Origin: a phage
Length of the DNA: 64,000 bases
Reading direction: 5' to 3' (one strand)
Sequence record: PZ386970.1
The position numbers were made by a program, and so were the translations under genes. This document shows, piece by piece, positions 29,403 to 35,972 of the stretch (position 1 is its first letter; each line of letters starts with the position of its first letter). The notes beneath the pieces are model-generated. The model searched no databases. It was not told where the DNA came from and saw nothing but the letters and a program-made list of their open reading frames with translations.

Positions 29403-29432
29403 TTTAAAACTTTAAATGGCTCTTAACGAGCC
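29400..29432 (-). terminator. hairpin (GGCUC-GUUAA-GAGCC) with U-rich tail 3' of kinase gene
   Basis: short stem, AU-rich downstream. Confidence 0.3.
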
Positions 29433-29971
29433 CATTTAATGATTTCTGTAATCAAATAATTACGTTCGCTTGCATTAAATCCTATAACTTTGTTAGCACC
29501 ATCATGATTAAGTAATTGATACGTTTGGATTTTGTTATGAATTGCAAACTCTTCAAAATATGAAATGACTGTATTAAAACCGAATGAAGACAAAGTAATA
29601 AGGTCGTCTTCAAAACTTTCAGTCATTTCGTTACGTGTTAAAATAATTGTGAACACATCATGGTTTTGGCAAAGACGAACATAATCCTGTTCATAAACGT
29701 CAAGAACCGAGTCCACATCTTGTCGAATACGTCCATAAACCCAGTTACTAATATATCCACGGTCTAACAGATAAATCTTAGTAGGGTCTAAATAATTCAA
29801 CATCGTTTCGAAACAACCAACTTCATTTCGAGACTTAACATCGAAACGCCCATCAACTGTTCGTTTAGGGAAATCAATCTTTACATATCTTTCACTAATT
29901 TCCATTATGTCATTAATGAAAGTTGTTTTACCAGCATTATCTGGGCCGTCTACTAAAATAATTTTAGCCAT
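29423..29971 (-). CDS. P-loop nucleotide kinase, thymidylate kinase-like
   Basis: Walker A ILVDGPDNAGKTT; downstream DRGY motif resembling the Tmk DRx motif; 182 aa. Confidence 0.55.
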   Translation of the reverse strand: MAKIILVDGPDNAGKTTFINDIMEISERYVKIDFPKRTVDGRFDVKSRNEVGCFETMLNYLDPTKIYLLDRGYISNWVYGRIRQDVDSVLDVYEQDYVRLCQNHDVFTIILTRNEMTESFEDDLITLSSFGFNTVISYFEEFAIHNKIQTYQLLNHDGANKVIGFNASERNYLITEIIKWAR

Positions 29972-29972
29972 T

Positions 29973-30872
29973 TTATTCCTCGATTACGACATCTTCGTAT
30001 TTAGGTATATTATACGGTGAAGAAATTAAAGCATTAAAGTAGATGAACTCACCAAGACCTGGATGGAATACTTCTTCAGGATTTTCGAAATATTGAATTT
30101 TCGGACGTCCTTTAAGAATTTGATAGTACTCAGTTTTAGTTGGATTAAAAATTCGAATCAGCGCTTCTTCAGGATACTTATTTCTGTCGAAACTATTATT
30201 TGGATCAGTTATATAAAGCGGTTGACCTAATTGAATTGCGCATTCAACAACTTGTTCAAAACGATAGCATGGGTCACTAATTCGAAATGGATGAAAAATA
30301 CCATCTAGATGAATAGGAGCCAAATCACCTACAAGACGCTGCATGATGGAAGGACGTATAACTTTCTGAGTTACGATAATCTTATTACCATCTGCACCTG
30401 CGTTAACCAGCACTTCTTTTTGACGTTCATTCAACACAGTAGTTTGAAGTGAACGATTAACTGACAACATATCGGTTTTTAAGAATTCGTCAATATAAAA
30501 ACGTGGTTTATTAGGGTCTGCCGTGATATTGAAATTGAATTCTACATCAAAAGCGCCGTCATATCCAGTGATATCTGTTATTAGAAAATCACAATCATAA
30601 TAAGCAATTAATGAATCAACCACAAATTCATTTTCAGACCAGAAATATTTACGAGTGTTATACGCGTTATCTTTATACCATAATGGAACAAACTTAAATT
30701 CCGGGAAAAGACGTTCACATTCTTTAATATCAGATGCATTACGTGGATATGTAATCACATCACCCGGATTAGCACGGTGCAAATGAAGTTGGAAGTTGCC
30801 ATCCTTAAGGATAGCATACTGTCCAGTTTCATAAGACCGCATACTCAAGATTGGTACGCGGAAAATAGCCAT
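29973..30872 (-). CDS. hypothetical protein (299 aa), cluster member of unknown function
   Basis: TAATG-coupled to the hydroxymethylase-like gene; no family recognised. Confidence 0.5.
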   Translation of the reverse strand: MAIFRVPILSMRSYETGQYAILKDGNFQLHLHRANPGDVITYPRNASDIKECERLFPEFKFVPLWYKDNAYNTRKYFWSENEFVVDSLIAYYDCDFLITDITGYDGAFDVEFNFNITADPNKPRFYIDEFLKTDMLSVNRSLQTTVLNERQKEVLVNAGADGNKIIVTQKVIRPSIMQRLVGDLAPIHLDGIFHPFRISDPCYRFEQVVECAIQLGQPLYITDPNNSFDRNKYPEEALIRIFNPTKTEYYQILKGRPKIQYFENPEEVFHPGLGEFIYFNALISSPYNIPKYEDVVIEE

Positions 30873-31588
30873 TAGTCAAGGAATCCTTTAACATAATCAA
30901 AATCACGTTCAAACACATGGGCACTTACCATGGTATGAGTATAATCACCAACTTCTACACCACATTCGTTAGCGATATAATGAAGTAATTTTCCTTGGAG
31001 ATAAAAATCCAACTGCATAACAACAGCACAATTCTGAGAACGCATATGACAGTGGGTATAAAGCTTACCATCACGAATATAATAAGTCACTGAGTCAGTA
31101 CATGGATATTCAAGCGTTTCGTCCGAATCAAGCAAAGCCTGATCAGAACTTTCTAGAATTTGGAACACAACTCTTCGGGAGTTAGGCTTCTCTTTAAGTT
31201 CTTTTAGAAGAGCTGGTAATTGGGCCGCAATTCGAGGACCATAGAAAGTGTTGAAGTTCGCAGGCAAAGCATCTGATTTTGGTTTAGAAATAAATTTAGC
31301 GACATTAGGATATGCCTTAAACGCTTCTTCTGCATCAGTACCACCAGAAATCATAAACTTCCAGAAATCTTCGGCATATTCATAAGAGATGCGGTTAATA
31401 CGTGGGTCGGTCATTTTGAATGATGATGGAGTGTCAACAACTACTGTCATGGACCCAATTTCATTACAACGTCCAATACGAGAATCAGTTACGAATTCCG
31501 GGTTTTCTAAAATTTCACGATTGACTGCTTTAAATGCGGCTTGAAAATCTGCTGCTTTGATATATTTCATTGTGTTATGTTTTCCCAT
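30872..31588 (-). CDS. 42: thymidylate synthase-family pyrimidine hydroxymethylase, gp42-like (dCMP hydroxymethylase), divergent
   Basis: KPNSRRVVFQI and PCTDSVTYYIRDGKL align with T4 gp42 NPDSRRGIMIY and MCTNTVQYLIRDKKI (catalytic Cys); 238 aa. Confidence 0.7.
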   Translation of the reverse strand: MGKHNTMKYIKAADFQAAFKAVNREILENPEFVTDSRIGRCNEIGSMTVVVDTPSSFKMTDPRINRISYEYAEDFWKFMISGGTDAEEAFKAYPNVAKFISKPKSDALPANFNTFYGPRIAAQLPALLKELKEKPNSRRVVFQILESSDQALLDSDETLEYPCTDSVTYYIRDGKLYTHCHMRSQNCAVVMQLDFYLQGKLLHYIANECGVEVGDYTHTMVSAHVFERDFDYVKGFLD

Positions 31589-31607: not shown

Positions 31608-31633
31608 ATTATATACTCAATTCGTAAAGCTTA
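31608..31633 (-). promoter_or_regulatory. putative middle-type promoter (GCTTTAC box, 11 nt, TATAAT)
   Basis: upstream of the hydroxymethylase-like gene. Confidence 0.3.
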
Positions 31634-31870
31634 TTTGAATTTCTTGGCAATGTTGATATAACGTAAAGCTTCAGAATCTATACTTCCAAGAACACTATGA
31701 AGGAATGCATCAGTGTAGTATTCCAATTGAACAGGTTCTTTAATCACTTTAGCCGCTTTGGTTTCAAACAGGCCCATCAGGGCCTTTTTAAGAATTTGTT
31801 CGTTAGTGTTCAGTTTTATAGTCAAAATCTCTTCATTAAGTTTATAATTAAAAGTTTTTCTAGAAATCAT
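31631..31870 (-). CDS. hypothetical protein (79 aa)
   Basis: ORF only. Confidence 0.4.
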   Translation of the reverse strand: MISRKTFNYKLNEEILTIKLNTNEQILKKALMGLFETKAAKVIKEPVQLEYYTDAFLHSVLGSIDSEALRYINIAKKFK

Positions 31871-33027
31871 TCCGGGTACCTCAAAGCGTCATCAGAGTTA
31901 GTTATATCAATAATAGATATAGAGTTTTCTGCTAACCCGTTTTTAGATAATTGACGTTTATAATACCTTTCACAATATGTACACGTTGACCCACAGATTT
32001 CATTAGCACAATCAAAATCCGGATGTCTGAACCACCTTTTTTCTAAAAAGCCATCTAACAAAGAGGTTTCAATATTTACTGTATGTGAAAACTCAGTCTC
32101 ATTTTCAAGAGTGAAAATAGTCTCTAAAGGCTTCCACAGTTCTAACAAATTACCTTCAAACTTTTCAGAAGCGTATGCTTCAAGAACTTTCAAAATGTAG
32201 TCTGTGCTACCTGTACGTCCTGAAACTTTGAATTGAGTGATACCAATATCATTATAAAGTTTCAAATCTTGTGGACGAACAAAACGAGTTCTCAACCAGT
32301 TAAACGGGTCTGTATCACGAGCTTTAATACAGTGCTGCATAGGATATCCATTTAAGGATTTAGCATCATCAGCTGTAACATCAGTACTATGGAAAATATA
32401 GCAAGAGTCACGATAGCTACAATGTGTTGTATACCCTTTACCAGCATTAGAACAGAACTCATTTACAAGAACTTCAAATATTATATTGTTTTTATTGCAA
32501 AACTCTGCTGCACGCTTCAGGAAAGAAACTGAACGGTTCTTATGAATTCCACAGCAGACCTTTTTGATATTATACTGGTCATGTAAGTATTTGATTTGAG
32601 TTACAGCATCGACATGTAGAATTGTTGAAACTTCAATCTCAATGTCTTTATTGACTTCACGAACAATTTCCATAACAACAGGGTTAGCGATAGTAATACG
32701 CCATACGCCTATTGACCAAAGATACTGAACATAATCCTGAATAGCTTTCTTCTTCCACTCAACTAGTTCTCTTTTTGAACCAGGATTTATCGTGTTGAGT
32801 GTATAGTTAAAGCAAATACCTAATTCGTTACAACGTTTAACATAATCTTCTAACATCTTTTTGTCAACGTCAGGAAGCCTAAAATCAGGTCTGGCTGCTA
32901 CAAAAGCCATTTCTCTTGTAGAGCCGTATACTTCGTTTATCAAGCTATTAGGATAAGTTTTATTGAGCTCTACGATTTTATCAAGAAGAGCTAAATCAAA
33001 ATTCGTTCCGATTTTAAAAGTATTCAT
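31867..33027 (-). CDS. Cys-rich putative metalloenzyme, weak resemblance to peptidase-U32-family Fe-S proteins
   Basis: 386 aa; EVLVNEFCSNAGKGYTTHCSY resembles the U32 signature; additional C-terminal CxxxxCxxxCxxC; N-terminal pattern similar to U32 barrel. Confidence 0.35.
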   Translation of the reverse strand: MNTFKIGTNFDLALLDKIVELNKTYPNSLINEVYGSTREMAFVAARPDFRLPDVDKKMLEDYVKRCNELGICFNYTLNTINPGSKRELVEWKKKAIQDYVQYLWSIGVWRITIANPVVMEIVREVNKDIEIEVSTILHVDAVTQIKYLHDQYNIKKVCCGIHKNRSVSFLKRAAEFCNKNNIIFEVLVNEFCSNAGKGYTTHCSYRDSCYIFHSTDVTADDAKSLNGYPMQHCIKARDTDPFNWLRTRFVRPQDLKLYNDIGITQFKVSGRTGSTDYILKVLEAYASEKFEGNLLELWKPLETIFTLENETEFSHTVNIETSLLDGFLEKRWFRHPDFDCANEICGSTCTYCERYYKRQLSKNGLAENSISIIDITNSDDALRYPE

Positions 33028-33083: not shown

Positions 33084-33452
33084 TTATAGATTCGGTTTAT
33101 ATGATTTAAATGTTTCGAATTCGCCTTTATTCATAAGAGCTTTGAATTCGTCAGGACGCATAGCTTTGTCGTCGATAATCCAATCATATACTGGTTTATG
33201 TGTTAGCAAATTATGGTACTTCAAACCAATGTTTTCCAAGTTCTGAATCAGACTTGGGAGAATGTCAATTGCTATACGACCAGGACCTACTGACTTCATA
33301 CCACGAGCAGTGTAAAGCGTTATGGTATGCCCTGCATCATACAGGGCATTAATGGCAGACACCATTTCGACGTCTGGTTTGAAGTTCACGTAATCACGAT
33401 TGTTATTCCACTCTGTTATACAATCATCGACATCAAAACAAAGATTAAGCAT
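33084..33452 (-). CDS. small HAD-like phosphatase (122 aa from MLNLCFDVDD)
   Basis: FDVDDCIT (motif I-like), TARG, DWIIDDK (motif IV-like); resembles KdsC-type phosphatases; motif I imperfect. Confidence 0.35.
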   Translation of the reverse strand: MLNLCFDVDDCITEWNNNRDYVNFKPDVEMVSAINALYDAGHTITLYTARGMKSVGPGRIAIDILPSLIQNLENIGLKYHNLLTHKPVYDWIIDDKAMRPDEFKALMNKGEFETFKSYKPNL

Positions 33453-33469
33453 GTTTTCTACACGGTGCA

Positions 33470-35155
33470 TTAGATTCGTTCCCATTGATGAGTGATATCG
33501 CCACCGATTGGACGATAGGAAACACCAGTTTCTTTATCAGTTAGTACCCATTTACCAGGATTTTTTGTAATCAGAGTAGCCGTTACAGGTTCTGCTACGT
33601 CATAACTAATAGAGCCGTCCTGAAGTACACGGCCCATGTTACGTAATTGCTTAGTCAGAAGTTCCATGCCTTTATAATATGCGGCTACCGCTTTAAGTGG
33701 ATTATTCTTGAAATAACCACCCAATGCAATCCAGATAATTGCCACCGCCAAATGATGATACTCGTTAAACGAACTCATCTTTCCATATTTGTAAACTAAT
33801 GGATTGATGTTAATAGTCACATTACAAGTTGTTTCATCAATAGTAAACTGACCCCAGGTCGGATTAGCATTGAATTCATCATAACCTGAAACAGCATAAA
33901 GCACTTTAGCTTCATCATATAATTTTGGCCCGTAAATCTTGGTTTCACCAAAATATCCACGAGGGTCGATAAACTTGACTTCGCCGTTATCAGTAATCAT
34001 AGTATTACTGAAGTTCGGGTCACCGTGAATAACAGAGTACTGTCCCTGAGAACGGTTATGATAACGAATAAGATGTTCTAAAGCTTGTTTCAACATTGGC
34101 TTCAGACGTCCAATCTTAGTGTAGTTCACGTGTGTGATTTTACCAAATGAATCAATCAATGGCTGAATGCTTTCACAACGATCAATAACTTTCGTATAGA
34201 ACTCTTTAGTGAAATCACGGCGAACAGTTTCAGGACTTACAAAATAAGTGTCTGTGCTGAATTTCAGTGCATCTAAAATTGCATCAACAATTTGTGGACG
34301 AGCAAGACTTGATTTGGATTTAATATATTCAAATGCCGGCTTACCTTTAATGCGTTCCATTTCAAAGTTATTTTCATTAACAGAAACTAACTGAGGAACT
34401 GAATCTGATTTCACTTTCAAATACCACGAAATCTCATCTTTCTGAAGAGCTCGACCCTGTTCGGTTAATGCGAATTTAGTTACAGTTTCTTCACCAATTT
34501 CAACTGCATTAAAACTACGATTAAGTTCACGAACTTCATGAGCTTTTTCAAGTTTAGGCATATCACCTAAATCAATTATATTCATAAGCTCTGATTTATT
34601 GAATGCGCCGCTGTAAAGGAATTCTACGAAATCACGTCCTTTGCAGTATTCATGAATTTCCTCATCGGTAGAACCCATATAGAATTCCCAGTCTTTGAAT
34701 TGATAAATTCCTACAACATTACCGCCTGTTGCACCTACATTAGTGATATTTTCACCGTCGAAATTATATCGACATTCATCACCCTTAACATAGATTGCGT
34801 TAACATTCCAAGACCATGAACCAAAATCAGGAATAATATCGCACCAGTTAACAATTACGTTATGGCCGTCTAAATCTTTGTGTAATTTAGCAAGAGCATA
34901 AGCAGAACCATACGCTTCATCAACTGTACGAATAGTCACATTGAACCCTTCTTGCTCACAATAAGCTCGAACAGTTTCAGCAAATTTTGAATGAACTACT
35001 ACAATAATTTCATCTGCGCCAAGGTCAGAATAAATTGTATATAAATTGCTCAGAATAGTGTCTTGTTTATAGTTAACAAGCACCTTAGGAATATGATGCG
35101 TTATTGGATACAAACGAGTTGCCAGTCCGGCACCAAGAATAACAGCTTTTTTCAT
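33470..35155 (-). CDS. bifunctional sugar-1-phosphate nucleotidyltransferase (N-terminal) / APH-like sugar kinase (C-terminal)
   Basis: N-terminus MKKAVILGAGLATRLYPIT (GxGTRL NTP-transferase motif); C-terminus VIHGDPNFSNTMI...FIDPRG (Brenner HGDxxxxN and DxE/D kinase motifs); 561 aa. Confidence 0.65.
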   Translation of the reverse strand: MKKAVILGAGLATRLYPITHHIPKVLVNYKQDTILSNLYTIYSDLGADEIIVVVHSKFAETVRAYCEQEGFNVTIRTVDEAYGSAYALAKLHKDLDGHNVIVNWCDIIPDFGSWSWNVNAIYVKGDECRYNFDGENITNVGATGGNVVGIYQFKDWEFYMGSTDEEIHEYCKGRDFVEFLYSGAFNKSELMNIIDLGDMPKLEKAHEVRELNRSFNAVEIGEETVTKFALTEQGRALQKDEISWYLKVKSDSVPQLVSVNENNFEMERIKGKPAFEYIKSKSSLARPQIVDAILDALKFSTDTYFVSPETVRRDFTKEFYTKVIDRCESIQPLIDSFGKITHVNYTKIGRLKPMLKQALEHLIRYHNRSQGQYSVIHGDPNFSNTMITDNGEVKFIDPRGYFGETKIYGPKLYDEAKVLYAVSGYDEFNANPTWGQFTIDETTCNVTININPLVYKYGKMSSFNEYHHLAVAIIWIALGGYFKNNPLKAVAAYYKGMELLTKQLRNMGRVLQDGSISYDVAEPVTATLITKNPGKWVLTDKETGVSYRPIGGDITHQWERI

Positions 35156-35183: not shown

Positions 35184-35208
35184 ATTGTACACTATTCTAG
35201 TTAAAGCA
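35184..35208 (-). promoter_or_regulatory. MotA-type middle promoter (TGCTTTA, 12 nt, TACAAT) upstream of the nucleotidyltransferase-kinase gene
   Basis: exact MotA box core with canonical spacing to a TAnnnT -10. Confidence 0.45.
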
Positions 35209-35340
35209 TTCATACTTTGCCTGTAGACCAATCATAATCCATCCAATTACAAGTGTTGGAATCATTACTGGAGCCGTTAAGCTCCAGTAGATAGTCATGA
35301 CAAGCATCAATAGTAAAAGTCCTATTGTTATTGCTTTCAT
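35197..35340 (-). CDS. small membrane protein (47 aa)
   Basis: manual translation MKAITIGLLLLMLVMTIYWSL...; TAATG-coupled to SIS gene stop. Confidence 0.3.
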   Translation of the reverse strand: MKAITIGLLLLMLVMTIYWSLTAPVMIPTLVIGWIMIGLQAKYECFN

Positions 35341-35972
35341 TATTCGCCTCGTAACATGGCACCTAGTGCACCGCCAGGGTGGAACTTAAGGAAGTCATTA
35401 GAGGTAAATCCACGTTCAGAAGAAAGGTTGATAGCAAACGTATCGATAAGCGCTAACAACAATGTAGTGGACATTGTCGGAGCTAAAGAGTTCTCATCGA
35501 CCTCTACCGCGATGCCTGTACAGAAAGAGTAATCAAAAAGGGCTTCATTTTCTTGCGGAATGTCAGGGTTACAATGTAACAGAATCTGTTTAACCTGAGG
35601 ACGAATCATACGAAGATGTTTAGCAACACCTATCATTTCTTCGGTCTTACCAGAACGACTAATATGAATCAACACATCATTAGGCGCAATGAATCCTGCA
35701 TCACCGTGAGAATAATGCCCGGTGTTCAAGTACATACTAGGAATACCTAGTGAAGCAAATGTCTCAGAAGCTTTAGTTGCAATATTAGCATTCTTACCAA
35801 CACCTGTAATAATTACTCGGCTTTCATAATTACTAAGTCCTGGGCGTCGAAGAGTTTCTAGAATAGCATTATAACGAGCAGGGTTTTGACTAATTACTTT
35901 GGCCATAGTAGCCAAAGAAGAAGCTTGTTTTATGATTGCGTCAATAGCGATAGTGATTGGTGTAGTTTTCAT
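35340..35972 (-). CDS. SIS-domain sugar-phosphate isomerase, KdsD/GutQ-like (arabinose-5-phosphate isomerase-like), no CBS domains
   Basis: VIITGVGKNANIATKASETFASLGIPS...HISRSGKTEE and FLKFHPGGALG match the KdsD SIS domain; 210 aa. Confidence 0.7.
   Translation of the reverse strand: MKTTPITIAIDAIIKQASSLATMAKVISQNPARYNAILETLRRPGLSNYESRVIITGVGKNANIATKASETFASLGIPSMYLNTGHYSHGDAGFIAPNDVLIHISRSGKTEEMIGVAKHLRMIRPQVKQILLHCNPDIPQENEALFDYSFCTGIAVEVDENSLAPTMSTTLLLALIDTFAINLSSERGFTSNDFLKFHPGGALGAMLRGE

What the first reader, a model, noticed from the sequence alone, without database searches (positions are those of the whole stretch)
33470..35155. Fused nucleotidyltransferase-kinase: a single-polypeptide salvage module for an activated sugar
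The N-terminus carries the GxGTRL motif of sugar-1-phosphate nucleotidyltransferases. The C-terminus carries the HGDxxxxN and D-x-E/D motifs of APH/choline-kinase-like anomeric sugar kinases. Fusions of this kind are known for fucose and arabinose salvage in eukaryotes and Bacteroides, but are unusual in a phage. The domain combination (APH-type kinase rather than GHMP) may be novel.
Basis: partly seen in the sequence, partly recalled or inferred. Interest (0 to 1): 0.7.

Follow-up and report, generated by a model that had tools for sequence, protein, structure and literature searches.

The report
Phage UDP-arabinose kinase–transferase fusion (AfhE)
This gene of an RB69-like coliphage encodes a real two-domain enzyme (sugar-phosphate kinase plus nucleotidyltransferase) that makes the activated arabinose the phage attaches to its DNA cytosines, but it is the already published AfhE / RB69 ORF53_52c enzyme rather than a new discovery.

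Summary

The window is a Mosigvirus (RB69-like T-even phage). The protein is 99.6% identical to Bas46 gp0146 and 96.8% identical to the syntenic protein of phage HY126. The literature describes the HY126 enzyme, AfhE, as a bifunctional D-arabinose-5-phosphate kinase / UDP-D-arabinose pyrophosphorylase. RB69 ORF53_52c was proposed for this role in 2018.

It acts with the adjacent SIS isomerase and HAD phosphatase: ribulose-5-P to Ara-5-P to Ara-1,5-P2 to Araf-1-P to UDP-Araf, which glycosyltransferases add to 5-hydroxycytosine in phage DNA.

The route is de novo rather than salvage, the gene occurs in 377 phage records, and the architecture is published. Novelty: already known.

Side observation: the neighbouring U32-family Fe-S protein (31867-33027) has no assigned function and may be an O2-independent cytosine hydroxylase.

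The parts
33470..35155 (-). Whole gene: bifunctional kinase / nucleotidyltransferase, 561 aa. Ortholog of HY126 AfhE, RB69 ORF53_52c and Bas46 bas46_0146.
   Evidence: ORF. 543/561 aa identical to the syntenic HY126 protein XAN60479.1 and 559/561 to Bas46. Literature.
34526..35155 (-). N-terminal sugar-1-phosphate nucleotidyltransferase domain (aa 1 to ~210). Signature G8AGLATRL15 at 35111-35134. K24, D106 and D195-x-G-D198 are invariant.
33635..34525 (-). C-terminal ePK-like (choline kinase / APH fold) kinase domain (aa ~211-507). K227 and E241 invariant; catalytic loop H377GDPNFSN384 at 34004-34027; metal-binding D397 in FIDPRG at 33956-33973.
33473..33634 (-). C-terminal tail of ~54 aa (aa ~508-561, 'TKNPGKWvLtDkETG..YRP....QWE'). 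Present in T4-like phage orthologs, absent from shorter homologs. Function unknown.
   Evidence: Alignment A1. pLDDT is lower here, 74-85.
33084..33485 (-). HAD-type phosphatase (AfhF ortholog; RB69 gp51). The ORF starts at 33485. An alternative start at 33470 forms a TAATG overlap with the stop codon of the kinase/NT gene, suggesting translational coupling.
   Evidence: ORF. NCBIfam TIGR01689 capsule biosynthesis phosphatase E 1.9e-13. 127/128 aa identical to HY126. Junction sequence. Role per PMC13326640.
35340..35972 (-). SIS-domain D-arabinose-5-phosphate isomerase (RB69 gp55). Supplies Ara-5-P from ribulose-5-P.
   Evidence: Pfam SIS E 2.6e-10. NCBIfam KpsF/GutQ 4.7e-32 and KdsD 1.3e-30. 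PHROG 5670.
35197..35340 (-). 47-aa strongly hydrophobic small ORF between the isomerase and the kinase/NT gene (RB69 ORF054c / bas46_0147). Its ATG overlaps the isomerase stop codon (TAATG). Function unknown.
   Evidence: Sequence. Annotated in Bas46, HY126 and RB69.
31867..33027 (-). U32-family protein (RB69 gp50) with 10 invariant cysteines. No assigned role in the pathway. Context gene, and the subject of the side hypothesis.
   Evidence: Pfam Peptidase_U32 E 7.3e-11. Invariant Cys. At least 82% identical in all 222 phage records that carry it.
31631..31870 (-). 79-aa ORF of unknown function (RB69 ORF049c). It is absent together with the U32 gene from the three U32-lacking modules inspected.
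   Evidence: ORF. PHROG 8601, unknown function. Absent from AM101, QL01 and PspYZU05 modules.
30872..31588 (-). Thymidylate-synthase homolog (RB69 gp48). Reported to be a flavin/O2-dependent 5-hydroxy-dCMP synthase that makes the acceptor base.
   Evidence: Pfam Thymidylat_synt E 2.4e-15. 235/238 aa identical to HY126. Function per PMC13326640.
29973..30872 (-). 299-aa glycosyltransferase (RB69 gp46:47, proposed arabinosyltransferase 1). Consumer of the UDP-arabinose.
   Evidence: ORF. 296/299 aa identical to HY126. Assignment from PMC13326640 Table 1.
29423..29971 (-). Thymidylate-kinase-like nucleotide kinase (RB69 gp45), last gene of the module before uvsX.
   Evidence: ORF. PHROG 761 thymidylate kinase E 7.9e-45.

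Best explanation
The gene encodes the Mosigvirus ortholog of AfhE. AfhE is a bifunctional enzyme that carries out the first and last of three steps turning D-arabinose-5-phosphate into UDP-D-arabinofuranose.

Proposed sequence of steps:
1. The upstream SIS isomerase converts host ribulose-5-phosphate into D-arabinose-5-phosphate. The 5-phosphate locks the sugar in the furanose form.
2. The C-terminal choline-kinase/APH-fold domain uses ATP to phosphorylate the anomeric C1, giving arabinofuranose-1,5-bisphosphate. Catalytic residues: K227, E241, D379, N384, D397.
3. The downstream, translationally coupled HAD phosphatase removes the 5-phosphate.
4. The N-terminal nucleotidyltransferase domain condenses arabinofuranose-1-phosphate with UTP to give UDP-Araf. 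Catalytic residues: G8-x-G-x-x-T-R14, K24, D106, D198.
5. Phage glycosyltransferases transfer the arabinose onto 5-hydroxycytosine in replicated phage DNA, protecting it from host nucleases.

Shown here: the ORF, both folds, conservation of the catalytic residues, near-identity and synteny with the characterised HY126 enzyme, and gene linkage and gene fusion with the SIS and HAD partners.

Taken from the literature, second-hand: the substrates, the order of steps and the use of UTP.

My inference: phosphorylating C1 before removing the 5-phosphate is what keeps the sugar a furanose without needing a mutase.

For: The window is a Mosigvirus. The protein is 96.8% identical to the syntenic HY126 protein and 99.6% to Bas46, and all seven neighbouring genes compared are 96-99% identical to their HY126 counterparts.

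PMC13326640 states that HY126 AfhE is a dual-function D-arabinose-5-phosphate kinase / UDP-D-arabinose pyrophosphorylase, that AfhF is a Mg-dependent phosphatase, and that RB69 gp52:53 is the counterpart. PMC6024577 showed that RB69 DNA contains arabinose and that ORF53_52c is one 561-residue protein.

The flanking genes are an arabinose-5-P isomerase (KpsF/GutQ 4.7e-32) and a HAD phosphatase. The SIS, NT-kinase, HAD, ThyA-like order recurs in Acinetobacter, Pseudomonas, Dhakavirus and jumbo-phage genomes. Single-chain HAD+SIS+NT+kinase proteins exist.

The Thanatos ortholog (54% identical) is essential for phage propagation and inactive on xylose-1-P (PMC12838424).
Against: No enzymology was or could be done here. 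The primary biochemical paper (He et al., Nat Chem Biol 2026) and Mahler et al. 2025 are not in the library, so substrates and step order reach me only through PMC13326640.

That paper is not fully consistent with itself. Its Table 1 labels the phosphatase as 'dephosphorylates Araf5P to Ara' and the kinase as 'phosphorylates Ara to Araf1P', whereas its text gives the 1,5-bisphosphate order.

That XAN60479.1 is the protein named AfhE is inferred from architecture and synteny, because the GenBank record calls it hypothetical.

The kinase domain of this particular protein does not reach any Pfam gathering threshold by sequence. Nucleotide specificity cannot be read from the sequence.
Confidence: 0.88

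Rival explanations
1. Same enzymes, different order (AmgK/MurU/MupP-like). The HAD phosphatase first strips the 5-phosphate from arabinose-5-P. The kinase domain then acts as a true anomeric kinase on free D-arabinose, and the NT domain activates the resulting arabinose-1-P. This is closest to the first reader's 'salvage-type' kinase.
For: Table 1 of PMC13326640 annotates the RB69 and DLP3 proteins in exactly this way. The same three folds work in this order in MurNAc recycling (papers listed). The structurally nearest sugar kinases, glucosamine kinase and maltokinase, act on non-phosphorylated sugars.
Against: The text of PMC13326640, citing experiments on HY126, gives Ara-5-P to Ara-1,5-P2 to Ara-1-P. 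Free arabinose would equilibrate to the pyranose form, losing the furanose ring (inference). Linkage and fusion with a SIS isomerase shows that the input is a sugar phosphate in either case, so it would still not be salvage.
Confidence: 0.08
2. The pathway is as described, but the nucleotide donor or product differs in this phage, for example CDP-, GDP- or dTDP-arabinose, or the pyranose form.
Against: 96.8% identity to the HY126 enzyme reported to make UDP-D-arabinose. No substitutions fall at invariant positions.
Confidence: 0.05
3. It is a LicC/LicA-type enzyme pair that phosphorylates and then nucleotide-activates a small alcohol such as choline or ethanolamine, or an antibiotic/aminoglycoside kinase fused to an unrelated transferase.
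Against: The gene neighbourhood is constant: arabinose-5-P isomerase, HAD phosphatase, 5-hydroxy-dCMP synthase and glycosyltransferases. The chemically determined modification in these phages is arabinose. There is fusion to SIS and HAD domains. Identity to the choline enzymes is only 10-20%.
Confidence: 0.01
4. The protein is itself the DNA glycosyltransferase, as suggested by CDD 'glycosyltransferase family A' labels and by the Thanatos study.
For: CDD/GT-A annotation is quoted in PMC6024577 and PMC12838424. Loss of TH1_060 blocks phage growth.
Against: The conserved signature is that of nucleotidyltransferases (GxGxxTR...K), and all top structural matches are pyrophosphorylases, not transferases acting on acceptors. 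Dedicated GT-B glycosyltransferases are encoded in the module. TH1_060 did not glycosylate DNA in vitro.
Confidence: 0.01

Closest known systems
AfhE of Escherichia phage HY126 (He et al., Nat Chem Biol 2026, as cited in PMC13326640); equivalent to RB69 ORF53_52c / gp52:53 (PMC6024577) and Bas46 bas46_0146
   Same: Same gene: 96.8% (HY126) and 99.6% (Bas46) amino-acid identity, the same 561-562 aa two-domain architecture, and the same position between the SIS isomerase and the HAD phosphatase downstream of DNA polymerase gp43.
   Different: 18 substitutions and one single-residue indel relative to HY126, concentrated at residues 240-265 in the kinase N-lobe and none at invariant positions. The RB69 reference record splits the gene in two; Thomas et al. 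attributed this to a one-base sequencing error. The window has the intact frame.
AmgK / MurU / MupP (MurNAc recycling in Pseudomonas)
   Different: These are separate proteins, not a fusion. The phosphatase acts first and the kinase works on a free sugar. It is a genuine salvage route with a different sugar. NCBIfam MurU scores 24.8 bits against a cut-off of 250, so this protein is not a member.
GmhA / HldE / GmhB (ADP-heptose biosynthesis)
   Same: Identical pathway logic (established biochemistry, from my own knowledge): SIS isomerase, then a bifunctional kinase/nucleotidyltransferase that makes a 1,n-bisphosphate, then a HAD phosphatase that removes the distal phosphate, then nucleotidyl transfer by the second domain of the same bifunctional protein. 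The phage HAD protein is even mislabelled 'phosphoheptose isomerase' in databases.
   Different: HldE uses a ribokinase/PfkB-fold kinase and a cytidylyltransferase-like (HIGH-motif) adenylyltransferase. No such families hit the phage protein. The resemblance is convergent in logic, not homologous.
LicA / LicC (choline kinase + CTP:phosphocholine cytidylyltransferase)
   Different: The substrate is an amino alcohol, not a sugar phosphate. Identity is only 11-20%. There are no SIS or HAD partners.
   Same: A bifunctional kinase + pyrophosphorylase on one chain that yields an NDP-sugar.
   Different: Those use a GHMP kinase acting on free sugar for salvage and make GDP-sugars (established knowledge). 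No GHMP family hits this protein, and here the input is a biosynthetic sugar phosphate.

Membership tests
AfhE-type bifunctional D-arabinose-5-P kinase / UDP-D-arabinose pyrophosphorylase (phage arabinosyl-5-hydroxycytosine pathway) | N-terminal sugar-1-P nucleotidyltransferase domain with an intact GxGxxTR...K signature and metal-binding Asp residues | tested here: met
AfhE-type bifunctional D-arabinose-5-P kinase / UDP-D-arabinose pyrophosphorylase (phage arabinosyl-5-hydroxycytosine pathway) | C-terminal ePK-like kinase domain with the catalytic Lys/Glu/HxD/Asn/Asp set | tested here: met
AfhE-type bifunctional D-arabinose-5-P kinase / UDP-D-arabinose pyrophosphorylase (phage arabinosyl-5-hydroxycytosine pathway) | Orthology (high identity plus synteny) to the characterised HY126 enzyme | tested here: met
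   543/561 aa identical. The seven neighbouring genes compared are 96-99% identical and in the same order. That XAN60479.1 is the protein named AfhE is inferred from its architecture.
AfhE-type bifunctional D-arabinose-5-P kinase / UDP-D-arabinose pyrophosphorylase (phage arabinosyl-5-hydroxycytosine pathway) | Linkage with an arabinose-5-P isomerase, a HAD phosphatase, a ThyA-like 5-hydroxy-dCMP synthase and glycosyltransferases | tested here: met
   for the window. The same module is seen.
AfhE-type bifunctional D-arabinose-5-P kinase / UDP-D-arabinose pyrophosphorylase (phage arabinosyl-5-hydroxycytosine pathway) | Enzymatic activities: Ara-5-P + ATP gives Ara-1,5-P2; Araf-1-P + UTP gives UDP-Araf | not testable with these tools
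   Reported for HY126 AfhE only via PMC13326640. The primary paper is not held.
Pfam NTP_transferase (PF00483) | Score above the gathering threshold (21.2 bits) | tested here: met
   39.1 bits, residues 3-99.
Pfam APH / Choline_kinase phosphotransferase families (PF01636, PF01633) | Score above the gathering threshold for this protein | tested here: not met
   No APH or Choline_kinase hit at E <= 0.01. The best kinase-like hits are sub-threshold (Fructosamin_kin 17.1 bits against a cut-off of 22.4). Homologs P0056 and P0082 do pass PF01636, and the fold matches. It therefore has the same fold and superfamily but is a divergent branch.
GHMP-kinase bifunctional salvage enzymes (FKP type) | GHMP kinase domain | tested here: not met
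   No GHMP family in the Pfam or NCBIfam scans. The kinase fold is ePK-like.
HldE (heptose-7-P kinase / heptose-1-P adenylyltransferase) | PfkB/ribokinase kinase domain plus cytidylyltransferase-like domain | tested here: not met
   Neither family is detected. The resemblance is in pathway logic only.
MurU (NCBIfam NF045761) and GlmU (TIGR01173), labels used in some phage records | Score above the equivalog cut-off | tested here: not met
   MurU 24.8 bits against 250; GlmU 22 bits against 366.85. The 'bifunctional protein GlmU' annotations seen are mislabels.

The most novel reading that the evidence does not exclude
The unexplained part of this module is not the kinase/transferase but its neighbour two genes downstream. 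The U32-family protein at 31867-33027 would be an O2-independent, Fe-S and prephenate-dependent hydroxylase that makes 5-hydroxycytosine nucleotides when the O2/flavin-dependent ThyA-like synthase cannot work, for example during infection in the anoxic gut. This would parallel the TrhP/TrhO dual routes to ho5U in tRNA and RlhA's synthesis of ho5C in rRNA.

Evidence for:
- U32 relatives RlhA, TrhP and UbiU/V are O2-independent hydroxylases, two of them acting on pyrimidine C5 (PMC5727448, PMC6599085, PMC10990095).
- The subfamily has 10 invariant cysteines.
- It is at least 82% identical across all 222 phage records carrying it, while the kinase/NT drops to 42-66% in some of the same phages.
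- Its distant homologs always sit among deoxynucleotide-metabolism genes.
- It is absent from the modules of phages of strict aerobes (DLP3).

Evidence against:
- E. coli Dhakavirus QL01 also lacks it.
- Pairwise similarity to RlhA and UbiU is not significant.
- A role as a redox partner for the flavoenzyme is equally possible.
- The two key papers could not be read, so the idea may already have been addressed.
Probability: 0.3. Interest if true: 0.75.

Novelty: already known. Interest (0 to 1): 0.2.

Why it matters
The enzyme supplies the donor sugar for arabinosyl-5-hydroxycytosine. This DNA hypermodification lets RB69-like phages evade restriction and CRISPR nucleases, and it is a determinant of which defence systems can still see them. 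That is relevant to phage therapy and phage engineering.

As a finding it adds nothing new. The gene was flagged in 2018 and its ortholog was reported as biochemically characterised in 2026.

Practical value remains in three places:
1. Public databases still call it 'hypothetical', 'GlmU' or 'unknown function' (PHROG 4098), and call its phosphatase partner 'phosphoheptose isomerase'. Annotation transfer is overdue.
2. The family extends, as four-domain single-chain enzymes, into contigs that look like giant viruses and into a eukaryotic transcriptome. This hints at NDP-D-arabinofuranose use beyond phage DNA.
3. The conserved U32 Fe-S neighbour is an open, testable question.

Tried and rejected
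- **Primary papers not readable.** He et al. 2026 (DOI) and Mahler et al. 2025 (PMID) are not held. No supplementary text is held for PMC13326640. One malformed term search failed.
- **No solved AfhE structure.** The PDB sequence search returned only weak nucleotidyltransferase hits to the N-terminal ~100 residues.
- **No fusion precedent found.** A literature search for fused LicC-LicA ('LicCA') gave zero papers, so that precedent rests on memory only.
- **GHMP/FKP-type salvage reading rejected.** No GHMP domain is present, and a SIS isomerase is linked and fused to the gene.
- **Glycosyltransferase and choline-kinase readings rejected.** The reasons are given under the rival explanations.
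- **U32 side lead, negative results.** Pairwise BLASTP to E. coli RlhA and UbiU is not significant. The PDB sequence search was empty. Foldseek returned only the uncharacterised U32 structure 5d88 plus generic TIM barrels. Pfam on unannotated neighbours of distant U32 homologs was uninformative. A strict 'facultative anaerobe host' rule fails, because Dhakavirus QL01 lacks the gene.
- **One script error.** The first Python comparison failed on a missing file and was rerun.
- **Not used.** The representative-protein HMM search, the RNA tools and the metagenome/genome locus scans were not used, because the question was settled without them.
Full report
**1. Observation**

The stated coordinates are exactly one ATG-initiated ORF on the minus strand, 33470..35155, 561 aa. 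A GAGGA Shine-Dalgarno sequence lies 8 nt upstream.

The N-terminus reads MKKAVILGAGLATRLYPITHHIPK. The motif is G8-A-G-L-A-T-R-L15 followed by P23-K24. This is the GxGxxTRL form of the nucleotidyltransferase signature found in LicC and GlmU, not a literal GxGTRL.

In the C-terminal half, H377-G-D-P-N-F-S-N384 is an exact HGDxxxxN.

Several independent lines show this is not chance:
- Pfam NTP_transferase scores E 8.4e-10, above the curated threshold, over residues 3-99. The kinase half gets only sub-threshold hits to Fructosamin_kin, EcKL and RIO1.
- The PDB sequence search gives LicC at E 2e-5.
- In an alignment of 33 homologs down to 29% identity, G10, R14, K24, D106, D195, G197 and D198 (transferase) and K227, E241, H377, G378, D379, N384 and D397 (kinase) are invariant.
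- An AlphaFold2 model built on that alignment is confident: pLDDT 92.7, pTM 0.89.

**2. What genome this is**

The neighbouring 903-aa ORF is a T4-type family B DNA polymerase. Megablast places the gene (98.5%) and the surrounding 24 kb (about 97%) in Mosigvirus phages, that is RB69 and its relatives.

The local gene order on the minus strand, in the direction of transcription, is:
1. gp43 polymerase
2. SIS isomerase, 35340-35972
3. 47-aa hydrophobic ORF, 35197-35340
4. this gene
5. HAD phosphatase, 33084-33485
6. U32-family protein, 31867-33027
7. 79-aa ORF
8. thymidylate-synthase homolog, 30872-31588
9. 299-aa glycosyltransferase
10. thymidylate-kinase-like protein
11. uvsX

The stop codon of this gene overlaps an ATG of the HAD gene (TAATG). 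The same arrangement joins the SIS gene to the small ORF. This suggests translational coupling.

**3. It is a published gene**

Thomas et al. 2018 (PMC6024577) showed that RB69 DNA carries arabinose. They found that RB69 ORF053c and ORF052c are a single 561-residue protein split by a one-base sequencing error, and proposed it and the SIS protein ORF055c as UDP-arabinose biosynthesis candidates. The RB69 reference record still shows the split. The window has the intact frame.

The BASEL phage Bas46 annotates its copy as a 'putative enzyme involved in UDP-arabinose biosynthesis'.

A 2026 NAR paper (PMC13326640) reports the following, citing He et al. (Nat Chem Biol 2026) and Mahler et al. (Cell Host Microbe 2025):
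- The base is arabinosylated 5-hydroxycytosine, not hydroxymethylcytosine.
- The ThyA homolog is a flavin/O2-dependent 5-hydroxy-dCMP synthase.
- AfhF is a Mg-dependent phosphatase that converts Ara-1,5-bisphosphate to Araf-1-P.
- RB69 gp52:53, gp51 and gp55 are the counterparts.

I located HY126 in the phage collection (PP658200.1) and fetched the region. Identities to the window proteins are:
- the syntenic 562-aa protein: 543/561 (96.8%)
- HAD: 127/128
- SIS: 205/210
- U32: 384/386
- ThyA-like: 235/238
- glycosyltransferase: 296/299

The Bas46 protein is 559/561 identical. The 18 substitutions relative to HY126 avoid all invariant positions.

I could not read the two primary papers, so the substrates and the order of steps are second-hand. 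That XAN60479.1 is the protein named AfhE is inferred from its unique architecture and position.

**4. Mechanism**

The best-supported reading has four steps:
1. The SIS isomerase draws ribulose-5-P from the pentose-phosphate pathway and makes D-arabinose-5-P.
2. The C-terminal kinase domain phosphorylates C1.
3. The HAD phosphatase removes the 5-phosphate.
4. The N-terminal domain couples Araf-1-P to UTP.

The module's glycosyltransferases then use UDP-Araf on 5-hydroxycytosine in DNA.

Independent support generated here:
- The SIS, NT-kinase, HAD, ThyA-like order recurs in distant phages. Examples are Acinetobacter AM101 (57% identity), Pseudomonas PspYZU05, E. coli Dhakavirus QL01 (43%), a 350-kb jumbo-phage-like contig and a metagenomic phage contig.
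- About 890-955-aa homologs carry HAD, SIS, NT and kinase on one chain. All catalytic residues of both the NT and kinase domains are intact in them. This is a Rosetta-stone argument that the three phage genes act together on a phosphorylated sugar.
- The Thanatos ortholog (54% identity) is essential for phage propagation and inactive on xylose-1-P (PMC12838424).

My own inference is that phosphorylating C1 while the 5-phosphate is still in place preserves the furanose ring, which explains the bisphosphate detour.

The main residual uncertainty is the order of the kinase and phosphatase steps. Table 1 of PMC13326640 gives the opposite order to its text. The nucleotide specificity is also uncertain.

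**5. Comparison with known systems**

- **By descent**, the protein is AfhE / RB69 ORF53_52c.
- **By fold**, the nearest characterised trio is AmgK/MurU/MupP of MurNAc recycling: an APH-type anomeric kinase, a minimal uridylyltransferase and a HAD phosphatase. Those are separate proteins acting in a different order on a free sugar.
- **By logic**, it mirrors ADP-heptose synthesis (GmhA, HldE, GmhB). HldE's two domains have different folds, so this is convergence.

Labels such as 'GlmU', 'mannose-1-phosphate guanyltransferase' and, for the HAD protein, 'phosphoheptose isomerase' in phage records are mis-annotations. PHROGs still lists the family (phrog_4098) as unknown function.

**6. Verdict on the interpretation**

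The domain call is right, and so is 'activated sugar'. 'Salvage' is not supported. 'Unusual in a phage' is wrong, since 377 phage records carry it. 'May be novel' is wrong. Novelty: already known. Interest in the finding itself is low.

**7. Things noticed along the way**

(a) The U32-family neighbour has no assigned role; PMC13326640 only guesses 'sugar or heterocycle reductase'.
- U32 proteins RlhA, TrhP and UbiU/V are O2-independent hydroxylases. RlhA makes 5-hydroxycytidine in rRNA and TrhP makes 5-hydroxyuridine in tRNA.
- The phage subfamily has ten invariant cysteines, including a C-terminal C340-x4-C-x3-C-x2-C352 cluster.
- It is at least 82% identical in all 222 phage records carrying it, while the NT-kinase falls to 42-66% in some of the same genomes.
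- Its 46-58% identical metagenomic relatives all sit among deoxynucleotide-metabolism genes: dCMP deaminase, thymidylate kinase, UDG, MazG, dNK, NT5C, nucleoside deoxyribosyltransferase and radical-SAM/SPASM.
- U32 and the 79-aa ORF are missing from the modules of phages of strict aerobes (DLP3). They are also missing from E. coli Dhakavirus QL01.
- No paper in the searchable library links U32 to phage hydroxycytosine.
- An O2-independent route to 5-hydroxycytosine is therefore a plausible, untested idea. A role as a redox partner of the flavoenzyme is an alternative.

(b) The four-domain fusion P0084 lies beside Rpb2, Rpb10 and a MutS-HNH gene, a context typical of giant viruses. P0091 comes from a eukaryotic transcriptome set.

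(c) Versions of about 786-790 aa carry a C-terminal extension that in one case weakly matches a cupin-type mannose-6-P isomerase domain.

(d) T4-like phage orthologs have an extra C-terminal tail of about 54 aa with unknown function.

Noticed in passing
window 31867-33027 (-): A U32-family ('peptidase') protein with 10 invariant Cys, including a C-terminal C-x4-C-x3-C-x2-C cluster. It sits between the arabinose genes and the 5-hydroxy-dCMP synthase and has no assigned role. It is at least 82% identical in all 222 phage records that carry it, far more conserved than the NT-kinase. Its distant homologs always lie among deoxynucleotide-metabolism genes. U32 relatives RlhA and TrhP hydroxylate pyrimidine C5 without O2, so it may be an anaerobic route to 5-hydroxycytosine..
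   Followed up: partly
window 31631-31870 (-): A 79-aa ORF (PHROG 8601, unknown function, no Cys). It is absent, together with the U32 gene, from the three U32-lacking modules inspected (AM101, PspYZU05, QL01). It may be a partner of the U32 protein..
   Followed up: no
window 35197-35340 (-): A 47-aa, strongly hydrophobic ORF (MKAITIGLLLLMLVMTIYWSLTAPVMIPTLVIGWIMIGLQAKYECFN) wedged between the isomerase and the NT-kinase. Its ATG overlaps the isomerase stop codon (TAATG). It is annotated as hypothetical in Bas46, HY126 and RB69. A small membrane protein inside a cytoplasmic sugar-nucleotide operon is unexplained..
   Followed up: no
L002 8001-10781 (P0084); also P0088, P0089, P0091, P0092, P0096, P0104, P0108: Single-chain proteins of about 890-955 aa with the domain order HAD, SIS, NTP-transferase, kinase; a SIS hit is on record for P0084, P0088, P0089, P0091, P0092, P0096 and P0108, but not for P0104 or the ~890-aa members P0097, P0103, P0107 and P0118 (precomputed Pfam). 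All NT and kinase catalytic residues are conserved. P0084 lies next to Rpb2, Rpb10 and MutS-HNH genes (a giant-virus-like context, with no ThyA-like neighbour), and P0091 comes from a eukaryotic transcriptome collection. This suggests NDP-D-arabinose synthesis outside phage DNA modification..
   Followed up: partly
P0105, P0106, P0109, P0110, P0116 (homologs, no locus fetched): Variants of about 777-790 aa in which the NT-kinase carries a C-terminal extension. In P0106 this weakly matches a cupin-type mannose-6-phosphate isomerase domain, and JGI names two of them accordingly. They may be the same pathway with a different isomerase or sugar..
   Followed up: no
window 33473-33634 (-), aa ~508-561 of the NT-kinase: A C-terminal tail of about 54 aa conserved in T4-like phage orthologs ('TKNPGKWxLxDxETGxxYRP...QWE'), absent from shorter phage and metagenomic homologs, and modelled with lower confidence (pLDDT 74-85). 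Its function is unknown; it may be a docking element..
   Followed up: no
window 33084-33485 (-) and database records: There is systematic mis-annotation. The HAD phosphatase is labelled 'phosphoheptose isomerase' in RefSeq phage records and in PHROG 1238. The NT-kinase is labelled 'GlmU', 'mannose-1-phosphate guanyltransferase', 'nucleotide-sugar epimerase' or 'unknown function' (PHROG 4098). The RB69 reference still splits the gene into ORF052c and ORF053c..
   Followed up: yes
L012 314-1249 and L013 13160-14185: A radical-SAM/SPASM gene recurs near distant homologs of the phage U32 protein in two unrelated contigs. L013 also carries a second, weaker U32-like gene. This may be a conserved partnership..
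   Followed up: no
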